Part shown: positions 12,001 through 18,000 of the stretch, one piece after another
How the letters are laid out: each line of letters opens with the position of its first letter
Numbering within the stretch: position 1 is the first letter of the stretch
Origin: Myxococcota bacterium
GTDB taxonomy: Bacteria; Myxococcota; SpSt-1050
Reading direction: 5' to 3'
Assembly: GCA_049969675.1 (NCBI GenBank)
Contig: JBMFOP010000015.1
Location: 1-40,910, forward strand
DNA: 40,910 nt
Made by a program: the position numbers

Positions 12001-15000
12001 AACTGATATATATTGTTTAAATTTTCTCTATGAAGATTTATCAATTTCTATTTCTTATGTTGACACTGCTGACTTTTTCCTGCGAATATATAGATGGGAA
12101 GAGTGATGAATTGACTAAAGTGGCCTATGCCACCTGCACACGTGATATGGATTGTGGAATTGGCAGGTATTGTTCGGAGGACGGAATCTGCTCTATTGAC
12201 TGCACATCAAACAAGGACTGTGTCTTCTATCTTAATGGGGAGGATGAAAAGAATTATTATTGCTCTTTGTGTGGCAGATGCCTCAAAAAGGGTGAACTTG
12301 ATAAGCGATGTATAGTTGCAAAGGATATTATCTGCGAAGATGATTCTCTCTGCCAAGGGAGTGCCGGAACTGATTATATATGCGGCAAAGATGGATTCTG
12401 CGTGAAGAAGTGTTTAAGAGACAGCGACTGCAAGAGACTCGGAAGGGGTTGGTTATGCAATGAGGAGAAGATATGTACAAGGAGATGTTTTTGCAATAAA
12501 GATTGCTACTTCTTTGGGTGGGGGTACCGGTGCAGGCTTCCAGATAATATTTTAGAATCTGAAAATTGTGAATCGGATAACCCGGTCTTCGGCGAGTGTA
12601 TTCCACGGGAGGGAGGGATTGATTGGGGTTCAGATGTAAATTATGAAAAGAACTCAATAAAATATTCGGGTATATGGGGATGGAACCTAAACTATGCAGT
12701 TCGCACAACCGGACTCCCACTCGTATCTCAACAGGACTCTGTATCTATAGCATATGGTCTGGCAAAGATTCTCCAGAACTCAAAGGGTGGCATTGATATA
12801 AACCTTAAATTGTGTTCCATCAGACTTAAAAACTTTAAGGAAGACGACTCTGAATTTGAAGACCTCGCATATATTATTGTACCGGATTCATATTCTGACA
12901 GTATCCCTATTTTGATAAATAGTGTGGATTATGTACCGGAGATGAAAAGTGGTGCAGAGTTTATCTCAAATATTGTTCTGGATGTAAGAGGGGCGAGGTT
13001 GCCAGACCCGTGGAACACTCCACTACCTGACTATGAAAATCTGGATTATGTCTTCGATCAGGACAGAGATGGACACCCGGGTATGACCGTATTTGTCTCT
13101 GGAGTATTAACAGGTGAGGTCTACAATGTACAGAGATGGTGGGTAAGATATAAAGTTATAGTTAAAGATATTGACAGAATGAGCGGGATGATTGACTTTA
13201 ATAGTGAAGAGTCAATTGTAGGGTCAAGTAATAAGATGTTTCTGACCAGGATAAAGGTAGTTCCACATCCTCAATCTGACAGGAGTTATTTCAGGGCAGT
13301 CCGATTAAAAGCAGATGCGGACTGTGAAACAGTTATCTCGCTTGGCAGGGACCCAAATTCATTCATATACTTCACCCCCCACTTCTCCGAATAAATATTT
13401 CTTATTCTTTACAAAAGCCTTAATTTATATATAATCAATTGACTTCACCCAGGAGCCTTTATGAAGGACTTGATAATCAACAATATCTTGAGGTATGGGG
13501 CGAGGGCGATATTTGTAAGGACTATTAAGAAGTTTGAAGATGACACAACCCATCTCAGAGAGGCACAGGAGAGGGCACTAAAGAAGATTATAGAAAAGAA
13601 TAAAGACACCCTATATGGGAGGGAATTTGGCTTTTCTAATATAAAGGGTATTGAAGATTTTCAGAAATTTGTGCCACTAAATGACTATACCACTCTTGAA
13701 CCATATATTGAAAAGATGATTATGGGAGAAGAGAATATACTTACCCCCGATGAGATAATATTCTTTGGCACAACAAGCGGCACAACTGCAAAACCAAAAT
13801 TCATTCCAATCACAGATGAACATTTTAAGTATGTAGGTAGATCTGTCTTACCATATTTTAGATTTATTACTGAAGAGTGTCCTCAGGCGATAAGAGGTGG
13901 AACTATCAAGATGACATCTCCAAAACTTGAAGGATTTACTGAAAAGGGAGTACCTTATGGCTCCCCATGGTATATTACAGAGGTTGCAAAGAATAGAAGA
14001 AATCCAATATTGAGAGATTTACTAATCGCATTGAATAAGAATTATTGGGAAGACGAGATATTCAATATCACTGATTTTAATACCAAATACTATATAATTA
14101 TGCGACTGGCGGTTGAGAGAAATATTACACATTTTTCAATGGCTAACCCTTCTACTGTCTTACTCTTTGCAAAGAAATTAAATGAGTTTGCAGAGGATAT
14201 AATTAGAGACCTTTACGACGGGAGTATCAAAAAAGGTCTGTTTCTTGATCCAGCACTACGAATGAAACTTATTAGAAAAATTAAAAGGAATGCCAGACGA
14301 GCAAAGGAGCTTGAGAGACTCCTTCAAGGTGATGGTATGCTTAAGCCCTCAAAGGTGTTTAAGAATCTATCACTCATCTCCTGCTGGAAAGGTGGCTCCG
14401 CTGGATTTTACATAAAGCAGTTCCCAAAATACTTTGAGAATACACCTACAATGGAGTATGGCATAGGTGCAACAGAGGGAATATTCGCAATCCCATATAG
14501 GCTTGAAGAGAGAGGTTGTATATTACAGCCCGGATATATATTCTTTGAATTTATTCCCGAAGAGGAGTATTTCTCCGAGAGAAAAAGGATTCTCACAGCA
14601 GACCAGCTGGAATTGGGTGGAAGGTATTCAATTGTTATTACAGGCTATAACGGCCTTTATCGTTATGATATGAAGGATATTGTGGAGGTGGTAGGCTTCT
14701 ATAATAAATCCCCTATAATTGCATTTTTGCACAAGGCAGGGAATGCAGTCTCATATACGGGTGAGAAGATATTTGAGACCCATATTACAGAGGCAATAAA
14801 CCAGACCATCTCCGAATCCTTTATTCACTTAAACGGATTCACATTTCTACCAGATGAGAGCGGAGAATTGCCCAGATATATTCTTATGATTGAACCTCAG
14901 GAACAGATTGGAGATGATATGGCAGAGGGCTTTTTAAGGGCCTTCGAAAAGAACCTCAGAAAGGTAAATATGGAGTATGAGACAAAAAGGGTCTCTATGA

Positions 15001-18000
15001 GACTTGGTGCCCCTCTGCTCGCGGTACTTAAAAATGGGGAGTATGAAAGATTTAGAGCCGCCCTTATTGCAAAGGGTGCCTCAGATGCAACCACCAAGCC
15101 ACCTGTCTTAAAGAAAGAACCGTCATTTATAGATAATTTCAATGTCATCCGAAAATATGAATATAAGGAGTAGTCTATGGTCTACAGGGCAACACATATC
15201 TTAAAGATAAAAGAGGAGGACTATTTCAAAGCGATGTTCAGTGATGAGTTTGACAGCTATCTATCCGAAAGACTGAATCTGGCAAGCAGAAAGACACTCT
15301 ATAATACTGAGACCGAGAATACAATAGAGAGGAAGGTCAGGAGTACATCAAAGGAATTATCTGAGCGGGCACAGAGTATATTAAGGCAGAAGACACTCAC
15401 TGTGGACGAAAAGATAAACGTTCGTAAAGATTCAAACGAATTCTTCTGGGAATTTATTCCAGATGTGTTTACCAGAATGGTCACTATAAAAGGTAAAGGT
15501 AAGATTTATAAAAATGATGATGAGAGTATTAAAAGGGAGATGGAATTAGAGATTCAGGTGCATATCCCGCTATTCGGGAGAAAGATTGAGGAGTTTATTG
15601 TCAGCAGACTTGATGCCTGGTATGAGAGGGTAAATAAATCACTTGAAGAGTTTTATCAGACGGTATATTTAAAAAAGGTCAACTGACGAGGTGTGATATG
15701 AAGAGGACGCCAGAGGAAATTATTGCAATGAGGAGGCTGGTTATTGATAGATTCCATCGCCTCAACTGTGCCCCAACGGTTACAATAAATATGGATGCCT
15801 TTATAGAGCCAGCCCTTGCATTCAAAGATAAACTCAATCGGGATGAGAGGGCAAAGAGATATAAGATCACGCTCAACCACATAATACTCAAAGCGACTGC
15901 CATGGCTTTGAGAGAACATATATTTTTCAATTACGATTATGATGGGAAATATAAGATCTATCCCAACGATAAGATTGATATAAGGACACCCGTTGATCTC
16001 GGAGAATTTCCGATGCACATAGTTATTCCTGATACCGATAAGAAGAATATCTTTGAAATTGCTGAGTGTTTCAATGAACGCCTTGAAGAGGTAAAGAAGA
16101 ACATTGATGTTCAGATGCAAAAATATATAGATTTTCAAATGAAGAAAAAGGGACTCTCTACTCTCATAAATATATGGACTGAGGTTGCAAGACGCGCGAG
16201 ACCGTTATTCCCCAGATGGGAGAAGAGATGGTTTGATATTCAGCATAAATATATAGGCTCATTTATGGTAACAAATATGGGGACACTCGGTGTAATTGAT
16301 TGCCACGGACAGCTGGTCAAACCATCTATCGCGGCACTTCTTGTCCTATCTTCAAAGGAGGTTGTAGAGATAATTGATGGCAGACCAACAAACAGAAAGT
16401 ATCTGGGACTTGCTCTGGAGTTTGACCACAGGGTAACAGACGCTGGAGAGCCGGGTAGGTTTCTCACAACCATCAAACGAAATCTTGAAGATCCGGAGAA
16501 GTATTGCGTATGAATATCTTTGACCCCGAAGAGTATATCGCAAGAAGATTACATATGATAAGGACATTCTCTGAAAAGAGGGTTGGCCCAACAGTGCTTG
16601 CTACAATAGAAGTAAATATGGATAACGCCCTTCTATATAGAGAAAAATTCAACAAAGAGTCAGATGTAAAGATCACAATCAACGATATGATTATAAAGGC
16701 AACGGGGAATGCACTTACAAAACACAGATTATATACCTGGTCATACAACGGCAGATACCGTCTCTATCCAGCTGATAAGATTGATATCAGGGCACCGGTT
16801 GATGTGGGAGATGATATAGGGTTACTGATTGTAAGAGATGTAGATAAAAAGGGTCTCCTTGAGGTTGCAGAGGAGACAAAGAGAAATCTTAAGCAGATCA
16901 AGGATTCAACACAGGCGAGGATTGATAAAATAGCAGAACTAAATAGACGATTCTGGTTTTTAAGACCATTTGTAAATGCCGGTAGAATGGCATTTGATAT
17001 CGCAACAATCTTCTCAAAGGATCTGGAGGAGTGGGTATATAAGAAACACAGAGAGGCACTCGGGACATTTTTGATATCAAATCTGGGTAAACTCGGTGTC
17101 AACGATTTTGCCTCCCCAATAGTTACACCTTCAATTGTGCAGATGAATGTGAGCTCCATAGAGAAGAAGGGAGTTATTATAAATGGTGAGCTCAAAGAGA
17201 TAAATATAGTTAAATTGATTGGAAAACTGGACCACAGAATTACCGATGTGGCACAGACAGTAAGATTCTTAAAAGAAGTCAAAAAGAATCTTGAGGAGCC
17301 AGAGACGGGCTTAAATAAAATTGAATAATTTACTTATGTGAGGAGAAACTTTATGAAGGATGTATGCTGGGTAAAATTGAATGTGCTTGAGAATTTTATG
17401 AGAGATGTATTTATAAAGCTGGGCGTCCCCAGAAGGGAGGCAGTGGTCTGCGCCAATGTGCTTATTACAGCAGATAGAATGGGATTTGACTCGCATGGCA
17501 TCTCCAGAATGAAGACCATATATTACGACAGGATAAAATCTGGTATCCAGAGACCAATTACAAAATTTGAGGTCATCAAAGAGACTCCAACTATCGCTGT
17601 AATTGATGGGAATCATGGAATGGGACATTACATAGCCTACCGTGCTATGGAGATGGCTATCAGGAAGGCAAAGAGATATGGCATTGCGATGACAGTGGTT
17701 AGAAATTCAACTCACTATGGTATAGCAGGCTACTACCCACTTATGGCTGTTAAAAATAAGATGATAGGTATCACAGGGACAAATGCAAGACCATCTGTCG
17801 CTCCCACATTCGGAATTGAGAATATGCTCGGGACCAATCCACTCACATTTGGAATCCCAACAGATGAGAAATTTCCATTTCTTTTAGACTGTGCAACATC
17901 TATTACTCAGAGAGGAAAAATAGAAGTATATGCAAAGTTGAATAAGCCGCTGCCAGAGGGCTGGGTGATTGATGAGAATGGGAGGTCAAAGACTGATCCT

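What a model noticed while it worked through the whole genome (the two positions that open the first line are those of the whole stretch)
13461..17328. GH3 acyl-acid amido synthetase clustered with an SRPBCC protein and two orphan E2-type acyltransferases: candidate ACP-i [...]
g00667 (GH3 family, distant relative of the lyso-ornithine-lipid synthetase OlsH that condenses a free fatty acid with an amino acid) is followed in one operon by a DUF2505/SRPBCC lipid-binding-type protein (g00668) and two paralogous 271-272-aa proteins (g00669, g00670) that consist only of the catalytic (CAT-fold) domain of 2-oxoacid dehydrogenase E2 subunits, with the DHRxxD active-site motif but no lipoyl or subunit-binding domain. 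The genome has no E1 component and no lipoyl-E2, so these cannot belong to a dehydrogenase complex. I propose an ATP-dependent, ACP-independent route to N-acyl (acyloxyacyl) amino-acid lipids, fitting a cell that lives on scavenged fatty acids. A second GH3 pa [...]
Evidence so far: Pfam GH3/GH3_M/GH3_C 220/79/64 bits; NCBIfam NF052613 OlsH 87 and 80 bits (below its 620-bit cut-off, i.e. same family, other specificity). OlsH biochemistry: PMC12493201 (abstract and passages read, call 38). E2 domain hits split 6-134/184-269; motifs DHRVTD (g00669) and DHRITD (g00670). missing.tsv: E1_dh and Biotin_lipoyl absent. The DUF2505-E2-E2 module is conserved: tandem E2 pair in 16 of 301 Myxococcota, DUF2505 upstream in G001 and G056; GH3 within 2 genes of a 2-oxoacid_dh gene in 3/4 of the order and 45 genomes overall (neighbours.tsv).
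(Added by a program. Inside this text positions count along the whole contig: contig position 1 is position 1 of the stretch shown here. "Call 12" and the like, gene names such as g00115 and contig names such as C1 are that model's own, and its searches are not shown. The text may have been shortened before it was handed on; [...] marks where a part breaks off. The agent that wrote the report below was given it as the finding of a first reader that could run no searches.)

Follow-up and report, generated by a model that had tools for sequence, protein, structure and literature searches.

The report
Paired acyltransferases sharing one active site
Two neighbouring genes in an uncultured bacterium encode cut-down relatives of a central-metabolism enzyme that probably work only as a mixed complex, with a lipid-carrier protein, to attach fatty chains at the membrane; the amino-acid-lipid enzyme in front of them is a partner in this one genus only.

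Summary
The four genes are real and tightly coupled: GH3, DUF2505 (START/SRPBCC fold) and two lipoyl-less E2-catalytic-domain proteins, A and B. The genome has no E1, lipoyl-E2 or lipoate ligase. The conserved unit is DUF2505 plus E2-like paralogues, not GH3. The same 14 of 401 Myxococcota genomes carry both, as an A-B pair or a five-paralogue operon; GH3 is adjacent only in this genus, which lacks FabD. In E2 the catalytic His and the oxyanion Ser/Thr come from neighbouring subunits. Relatives lose them reciprocally (G004: His on A, Thr on B; L085: the reverse; five-gene operon: His on 'a', Thr on 'c'), so only mixed oligomers keep a whole site. A 42-residue basic amphipathic insert replaces the lipoyl-docking loop. 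Best reading (0.5): a heteromeric membrane-surface acyltransferase with a lipid carrier, here fed by a GH3 that joins scavenged fatty acids to an amino acid. Donor, acceptor and product are untested; 'acyloxyacyl lipid' is one option. Precedents exist separately (AbmA4/Agg4, E2-E3BP, OlsH).

The parts
13408..13435 (+). Sigma-70-like promoter match upstream of the operon
   Evidence: 11 of 12 consensus bases, best of 28 matches in 11600-18600; consensus match only
13461..15173 (+). GH3-family acyl-acid amido synthetase, a subtype almost confined to this genus; motifs I (residue 104), II (335, Ile for Tyr) and III (398)
   Evidence: Pfam; best PDB hit JAR1, E 2.9e-39; motifs; trees; homologues drop from 77% to 46% identity
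15177..15686 (+). DUF2505 protein, START/SRPBCC helix-grip fold; predicted lipid carrier; the most constant partner of the E2-like genes
   Evidence: Pfam 39.9 bits; model pLDDT 91.8; Foldseek hits PRELI/Ups1, Aster, PR-10, aromatase/cyclase; same 14 genomes as the E2-like clusters
15698..16513 (+). E2-like subunit A (271 aa): catalytic domain only; Thr192, Cys202, His244, Asp248; Ala in place of the DHRxxDG Gly
16082..16255 (+). Segment of A (about residues 129-186) holding the 42-residue basic, amphipathic helical insert at the site of the E2 lipoyl-docking loop; B has an insert of equal length
   Evidence: 79 against 37 residues between the conserved Asp and the Ser/Thr; helices 118-149, 151-170, 172-186; net charge +6, hydrophobic moment 0.63; E. 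coli loop 536-544
16510..17328 (+). E2-like subunit B (272 aa): catalytic domain only; Ser190, His242; Val in place of the DHRxxDG Gly
17338..18462 (+). Ldh_2-family dehydrogenase, 9 bp downstream; possibly co-transcribed but not part of the conserved unit
   Evidence: Pfam 398 bits; follows B in G003 but not in G001 or G002

Best explanation
A and B are subunits of one heteromeric CAT/E2-fold acyltransferase (probably A2B or AB2 trimers). Each active site is built from the His-Asp of one subunit and the Ser/Thr face of its neighbour. The amphipathic insert, sitting where E2 docks its lipoyl domain, seats the enzyme on a membrane and admits a lipid-like acceptor, which the START-fold DUF2505 protein delivers or removes. 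The donor is probably a fatty acyl-CoA. In this genus, which cannot start fatty-acid synthesis, a diverged GH3 has joined the operon and most likely makes an N-acyl amino acid from a scavenged fatty acid and ATP, which A/B then O-acylate. Shown: gene anatomy, folds, absence of dehydrogenase partners, co-occurrence with DUF2505, reciprocal residue loss, insert position. Inferred: hetero-oligomer, membrane binding, donor, acceptor, and the hand-over from GH3.
For: (1) In E. coli E2p H603' and D607' come from the neighbouring subunit while S551 stabilises the intermediate (PMC8421416, passages). (2) Among 13 A-B pairs, G004 keeps His only on A and Thr only on B, L085 keeps His only on B and Ser only on A; in neither would a homo-oligomer have a whole site; G056 has lost His on A; all 13 keep at least one hetero site. 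Sister sequences follow suit: the G004 clade has 3 of 3 A without Ser/Thr and 5 of 5 B without His; the L085 clade has 7 of 7 A without His and 3 of 5 B without Ser/Thr. (3) In the five-paralogue operon (7 of 18 genomes of family f4) 'a' has His in 7 of 7 and lacks Ser/Thr in 7 of 7, and 'c' has Thr and lacks His in 7 of 7. (4) Of 56 A/B orthologues 16 lost His, 5 lost Ser/Thr, none both; 75 of 77 canonical-length E2 keep DH[RK]. (5) The close DUF2505 subfamily (E at most 5.2e-14; next hit 1.4e-9) is in the same 14 of 401 genomes as these E2-like genes; within f4, 9 of 18 have both and 9 neither, and G016/G101 keep it although unlinked. (6) Its fold matches phospholipid and sterol transfer proteins. 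(7) Insert of 42 residues, basic and amphipathic. (8) A 280-aa stand-alone E2-domain protein, AbmA4, is an O-acetyltransferase by mutant analysis (PMC5819245, passages). (9) FabD not found in 4 of 4 genus genomes; acyl-CoA-ligase family genes present. (10) OlsH makes N-acyl-ornithine from free fatty acid and ATP without ACP or CoA (PMC12493201).
Against: No biochemistry. 'None of 56 lost both' is not significant alone (P = 0.17), and the reciprocal pattern rests on about three independent lineages. In this window both subunits keep both residues, so homo-oligomers are not excluded here. Two B sequences without His (P0044, P0045) and one A without His (P0020) have unknown partners, so a pair with no His may exist (one search gave no way to pair them). 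All 48 A/B sequences checked lack the Gly of DHRxxDG that 75 of 77 canonical E2 keep, which may mean CoA is not the donor. Four of five subunits of the larger operon lack His, which fits a scaffold as well. GH3 is adjacent in one genus only and shows no association with the module within f4 (8 of 9 genomes with it, 6 of 9 without). START folds also include cyclases and small-ligand binders.
Confidence: 0.5

Rival explanations
1. One reading: a dedicated four-gene pathway for an acyloxyacyl amino lipid, GH3 standing for OlsH and A/B for OlsI.
For: Tight operon in 6 genus-level loci; GH3 motifs intact; OlsH precedent; no FabD in the genus.
Against: The module lacks adjacent GH3 in 6 of 13 A-B pairs and in the fetched stretches of 7 of 7 five-gene operons, three of them cut by contig ends; OlsH score 87 against cut-off 620; OlsH is weak on hydroxy fatty acid; no source of 3-hydroxy fatty acid was identified; six PlsC-type acyltransferases exist elsewhere in the genome.
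Confidence: 0.15
2. The E2-like paralogues are mainly structural: a heteromeric lipid-binding scaffold or E2-type cage (pseudoenzymes like E3BP), with catalysis decaying or irrelevant.
For: His lost in 16 of 56 A/B orthologues and in 4 of 5 subunits of the larger operon; up to seven paralogues in one operon in G056; E2 trimers form cages through a C-terminal helix, and A has a short C-terminal helix; inactive E3BP forms heterotrimers with E2 (PMC466950, passages).
Against: Losses pair up as the two halves of one composite site and every complete pair keeps a His plus a neighbour Ser/Thr; 'a' keeps its His in 7 of 7.
Confidence: 0.15
3. A/B are acetyl-CoA or short-acyl-CoA transferases that tailor a small diffusible metabolite (Agg4/AbmA4- or CAT-like), with DUF2505 as cyclase or ligand binder and GH3 as amide ligase of a small acid, as in plants.
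For: AbmA4 precedent; CAT is the next fold after E2 (Z 15.1); aromatase/cyclase and PR-10 among DUF2505 fold hits; best solved GH3 relative is JAR1.
Against: No PKS, NRPS, ACP or eliminating hydrolase gene beside any cluster examined; basic amphipathic insert; phospholipid-transfer proteins fill most of the top DUF2505 hits.
Confidence: 0.13
4. A/B act on a lipoyl carrier in trans (GcvH) or are remnants of a dehydrogenase complex.
For: A GcvH gene exists; E2 cores are the closest folds (Z 24).
Against: No E1, no lipoyl-E2, no lipoate ligase or octanoyltransferase match in a 99.9% complete genome; the lipoyl-docking loop is replaced by the insert; strong purifying selection.
Confidence: 0.03

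Closest known systems
E2 catalytic core of 2-oxoacid dehydrogenase complexes (E. coli E2p, PDB 7b9k; A. vinelandii 1eaa; human 6ct0)
   Same: Same fold (Z 24.4, rmsd 2.7 over 221 residues), DHRxxD and Ser/Thr motifs, active site expected between subunits.
   Different: No lipoyl or subunit-binding domain, no E1; 42-residue insert at the lipoyl entrance; motif Gly replaced; catalytic residues split between paralogues in relatives.
Tetronate O-acetyltransferases AbmA4 / Agg4 / QmnD3 / ChlD3 (PMC5819245, passages read)
   Same: Stand-alone E2-catalytic-domain proteins of about 280 aa that acylate a hydroxyl.
   Different: Single genes in PKS clusters, paired with an alpha/beta-hydrolase; here two to seven paralogues with a START protein and no PKS. 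I did not compare sequences directly.
Human E2-E3BP heterotrimer (PMC466950, passages read)
   Same: Mixed trimers of E2-fold paralogues, one of them catalytically inactive.
   Different: E3BP is an adaptor within a dehydrogenase and E2 is complete alone; here some lineages have no subunit that is complete alone.
OlsH-OlsI ornithine-lipid pathway of Singulisphaera acidiphila (PMC12493201, abstract and sections 6, 7, 9 part 1 read)
   Same: GH3 enzyme with the three nucleotide motifs; ATP-dependent, carrier-free N-acylation is the likely chemistry.
   Different: 87 bits against cut-off 620; second step by an alpha/beta-hydrolase; amino-acid substrate here unknown.
START/SRPBCC lipid-transfer proteins (PRELI/Ups1, Aster/GramD1, MSMEG_0129)
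   Same: Helix-grip fold, Foldseek E 4e-7 to 1e-5.
   Different: 8-16% identity; ligand unknown; equally scored hits include cyclases and PR-10 proteins.

Membership tests
2-oxoacid dehydrogenase E2 subunit | Catalytic CAT-fold domain with DHRxxD and Ser/Thr | tested here: met
2-oxoacid dehydrogenase E2 subunit | Lipoyl and subunit-binding domains, in cis or from a lipoylated partner | tested here: not met
   271/272 aa, one domain; no Biotin_lipoyl, no lipoate ligase match
2-oxoacid dehydrogenase E2 subunit | E1 partner in the genome | tested here: not met
   only E1_dh match is DXP synthase
2-oxoacid dehydrogenase E2 subunit | Gly of DHRxxDG | tested here: not met
   0 of 48 A/B against 75 of 77 canonical-length E2
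AbmA4/Agg4 tetronate acetyltransferases | Stand-alone E2 catalytic domain of about 280 aa | tested here: met
AbmA4/Agg4 tetronate acetyltransferases | Tetronate cassette (FabH-like, FkbH-like, ACP, alpha/beta-hydrolase, PKS) nearby | tested here: not met
   none among 29 window proteins scanned or beside related clusters
AbmA4/Agg4 tetronate acetyltransferases | Sequence orthology to AbmA4/Agg4 | not tested
GH3 acyl-acid amido synthetases | GH3 N, M and C domains and three nucleotide-binding motifs | tested here: met
   motif II has Ile for Tyr
GH3 acyl-acid amido synthetases | ATP-dependent amide formation | not testable with these tools
   needs an assay
OlsH lyso-ornithine lipid synthetase | NCBIfam NF052613 cut-off 620 bits | tested here: not met
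   87.3 bits
OlsH lyso-ornithine lipid synthetase | Linked OlsI alpha/beta-hydrolase | tested here: not met
   no alpha/beta-hydrolase family among 29 window proteins; rest of genome not searched
START/SRPBCC superfamily | Helix-grip fold | tested here: met
START/SRPBCC superfamily | Lipid binding or transfer | not testable with these tools
   fold match only
Heteromeric E2-fold trimers (E2-E3BP type) | Physical hetero-oligomer | not tested
   no complex prediction was obtained; inferred from residue complementarity

The most novel reading that the evidence does not exclude
An undescribed class of bacterial lipid-building machine derived from the E2 core: two to seven different E2-fold subunits assemble (possibly into a cage) at the membrane, share out the catalytic His and Ser/Thr between subunits, are served by a dedicated START carrier, and in a lineage that has lost fatty-acid synthesis are fed by a GH3 to build phosphorus-free amino-acid lipids from scavenged fatty acids.
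Probability: 0.3. Interest if true: 0.85.

Novelty: new variant of a known kind. Interest (0 to 1): 0.62.

Why it matters
CAT/E2-fold transferases are textbook homo-oligomers with the His motif treated as invariant. A family in which the two halves of the active site are shared out between paralogues, in opposite directions in different lineages and over up to five or seven subunits, would be a natural case of how heteromers and pseudoenzymes arise, and it is directly testable by mixing single mutants. [quoted passage not shown]

Tried and rejected
RNA evidence: no RNA holder was listed. E1_dh hit: rejected as DXP synthase. GcvH as lipoyl partner: rejected (and insert position). GH3 upstream of DUF2505 in G004: the 230 bp to the contig end show no GH3 C-terminus and G004's GH3 lies on another contig among other genes. 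General GH3-E2 linkage in the phylum: 2 of 71 loci, taken from the 106 non-operon matches. Pairing of His-less A and B sequences by record: no accessions given; only P0021 and P0042 share source and contig length. Context of P0081, a 46% relative of the window's GH3 subtype: not found in the 5 genomes of the class. Scans of genome and metagenome contigs returned 7 and 7 close loci; the other 146 were distant E2 matches. Plasmid search gave only matches under 30% identity among the 25 of 33 records listed. Atlas searches named only the known families. Wide fold search gave E2, then CAT, then WS/DGAT and condensation domains; no solved stand-alone tetronate-type protein was listed. GH3 substrate could not be read from the pocket. 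Literature searches with no paper on this system: (listings only). PMC9239090 (passages) was irrelevant. Supplements were not read; those of PMC12493201 (GH3 tree and neighbourhoods) may bear on the GH3 subtype. Trees are quick or FastTree runs with long branches and are used only to group paralogues. Gene calls in high-GC loci came from my own simple caller.
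Full report
Observation. The stretch 13461-17328 holds four genes on the + strand, 3 bp and 11 bp apart, the last two overlapping as ATGA: a GH3 protein (570 aa), a DUF2505 protein (169 aa) and two proteins, A (271 aa) and B (272 aa), made of the 2-oxoacid_dh catalytic domain alone and 34% identical. 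All four are under strong purifying selection against G002 (dN 0.06-0.13, synonymous sites saturated). In the 99.9% complete genome A and B are the only PF00198 genes, Biotin_lipoyl has no match, the single E1_dh match is DXP synthase and no lipoate ligase or octanoyltransferase is found, although a GcvH gene is present. So A and B cannot serve a dehydrogenase complex. The genome also lacks FabD and FabA/Z and has only two weak ketoacyl-synthase matches, while it keeps one ACP, five AMP-binding and six PlsC-type matches.

What is conserved. A and B were found as a pair in 8 of 401 genomes of the phylum: the four of this genus, G004 of the same class, and G016, G101 and G056 of family f4 (a ninth genome, G045, matched through another paralogue). 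Family f4 also holds a related operon of five E2-like paralogues, a-b-c-x-d, followed by the same DUF2505 gene, in 7 of 18 genomes. G056 has the five and then DUF2505-A-B, seven paralogues in a row; metagenome locus L082 has DUF2505-A-B alone between the same flanking genes. In all, 14 of 401 genomes carry these clusters, and the same 14 carry the close DUF2505 subfamily (E at most 5.2e-14, next hit 1.4e-9). Within f4, 9 of 18 have both and 9 have neither; G016 and G101 keep the DUF2505 gene though it lies elsewhere. Kin are not independent, but the match inside one family is exact. GH3 behaves differently. It is upstream in 6 of 13 A-B pairs, all at genus level, absent in 6 and unknown in 1. 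It was not seen beside any of the 7 five-gene operons, three of which are cut by contig ends. Of 71 other GH3 loci of the phylum, 40 have a HAD hydrolase, 2 an E2-like gene (convergent, His-less, one genus) and none a DUF2505-like gene. The window's GH3 is a distinct subtype: homologues fall from 77% to 46% identity, it forms its own branch with P0081 and lacks the Arg-Arg-x-Trp helix of the HAD-linked clade. FabD is not found in 4 of 4 genus genomes but is found in G004 and 18 of 18 f4 genomes, so GH3 recruitment coincides with loss of fatty-acid synthesis, in one lineage only.

Anatomy. The model of A (pLDDT 90.6) matches E2 catalytic cores best (Z 24.4), then CAT (15.1) and WS/DGAT (12.5). 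Between the conserved Asp114 and Thr192 A and B have 79 residues against 37 in canonical E2; the extra 42 form helices with net charge +4 to +11 in A/B orthologues and clear amphipathic faces. In E. coli E2p the loop 536-544, ending seven residues before S551, is where the lipoyl domain docks at the channel entrance (PMC8421416, passages); the insert takes that place. The DUF2505 model (pLDDT 91.8) has the START/SRPBCC fold, with PRELI/Ups1 phospholipid carriers, Aster sterol carriers, PR-10 proteins and a cyclase among the top hits. GH3 keeps the three nucleotide motifs described for JAR1 and OlsH.

The split active site. In E2 the catalytic His and Asp belong to one subunit and the oxyanion Ser to its neighbour. 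Canonical-length E2 keep DH[RK] in 75 of 77 cases; among 56 A/B orthologues 16 have lost the His, 5 the Ser/Thr and none both (P = 0.17 alone). The pairs are more telling. G004 has His only on A and Thr only on B; L085 has His only on B and Ser only on A; G056 has lost His on A. In G004 and L085 neither homo-oligomer would have a whole site, a mixed one has exactly one kind. Sister sequences repeat the pattern by clade. The five-gene operon shows it a third time: 'a' has His without Ser/Thr and 'c' has Thr without His in 7 of 7, 'b' has a His at the Ser/Thr position, and 'x' and 'd' mostly lack both. This is what one expects if the two halves of one inter-subunit site decay together while the other site stays under selection. 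In the window both sites are intact. Against: about three independent events; a few His-less sequences have unknown partners; the motif Gly is replaced in 48 of 48 A/B, which leaves the donor open; and no complex model could be obtained.

Mechanism. Most likely (0.5): a heteromeric, membrane-surface acyltransferase with a START-type lipid carrier, using fatty acyl-CoA, and in this genus acting on an N-acyl amino acid made by the adjacent GH3 from scavenged fatty acid. Shown: genes, folds, missing dehydrogenase partners, co-occurrence, reciprocal loss, insert position. Inferred: mixed oligomer (about 0.75), lipid-like substrate (about 0.65), functional hand-over from GH3 in this genus (about 0.55). 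Rivals are the strict acyloxyacyl pathway (0.15), a mainly structural scaffold or cage (0.15), small-molecule tailoring (0.13) and a lipoyl-linked role (0.03).

Comparison with what is known. Stand-alone E2-domain transferases exist: deleting abmA4 (280 aa) leaves the hydroxy-tetronate unacetylated, and Agg4, QmnD3 and ChlD3 are named as homologues (PMC5819245, passages); the locus works like them but lacks the tetronate cassette. Mixed E2-fold trimers exist in the human E2-E3BP core (PMC466950, passages), but there E2 is complete alone. [quoted passage not shown] That BAHD and carnitine acyltransferases tolerate Ala after HxxxD is recalled, not checked. Searches listed no paper on DUF2505-linked or heteromeric lipoyl-less E2-like proteins; the library lacks most subscription journals. 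The scan's index had no look-alike or matching note; notes on other parts of this genome did not bear on it.

Verdict. Observation largely confirmed, interpretation partly supported. The interesting object is the DUF2505 plus multi-paralogue E2-like module with shared active sites; the GH3 is a plausible but genus-specific feeder. New variant of a known kind, interest 0.62.

Noticed in passing
L039:8873-14981 (G056); L041, L257-L261: Five-paralogue E2-like operon a-b-c-x-d-DUF2505 in 7 of 18 genomes of family f4; G056 adds A-B, seven paralogues in a row; only 'a' keeps the His; 'x' (about 200 aa) has no insert.
   Followed up: yes
L007:7162-9518 (G000 contig C69) and 40 of 71 GH3 loci: The common GH3 context in the phylum is GH3 followed by a HAD hydrolase, then an unnamed 320-aa protein or a class-V aminotransferase (L249, L251); this clade has an Arg-Arg-x-Trp helix. 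It could make an N-acyl-phosphoamino acid that the HAD dephosphorylates (inference).
   Followed up: partly
L276, L277, L290, L294, L305, L253: Another GH3 type lies beside an enolase-superfamily protein; L276 also has an ACP and an MBOAT, L277 an alpha/beta-hydrolase.
   Followed up: no
L044-L049, L053-L055, L058, L262-L266: A single stand-alone E2-like gene with intact DHRxxDG and a hydrophobic insert is common across the phylum, in varied contexts; in G012 it lies near HMG-CoA reductase.
   Followed up: partly
L068:6178-6966, L245:3-743: A third, His-less E2-like type is convergent with a second GH3 in G016 and G101.
   Followed up: partly
L085:1647-2045: A LuxC acyl-CoA reductase fragment is convergent with an A-B pair.
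   Followed up: no
L057:7077-8794 (G000 contig C4): GcvH and a GcvP-family gene are present, yet the genome has no PF03099 match (lipoate or biotin ligases) and no Biotin_lipoyl match.
   Followed up: partly
L056:7959-8210 (G000 contig C2): A lone ACP remains beside yceD, rpiB and glyA with no fab genes around it.
   Followed up: partly
window 12030-13394: Cys-rich probable lipoprotein just upstream of the operon, no Pfam or NCBIfam family; not upstream in G001-G003.
   Followed up: no
window 39289-40659: Neutral/alkaline ceramidase-like gene (34 bits), which may also serve lipid scavenging.
   Followed up: no
L007:1402-5280 (G000 contig C69): ORFs that look by eye like type III or flagellar export apparatus subunits, upstream of the second GH3; not scanned.
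   Followed up: no
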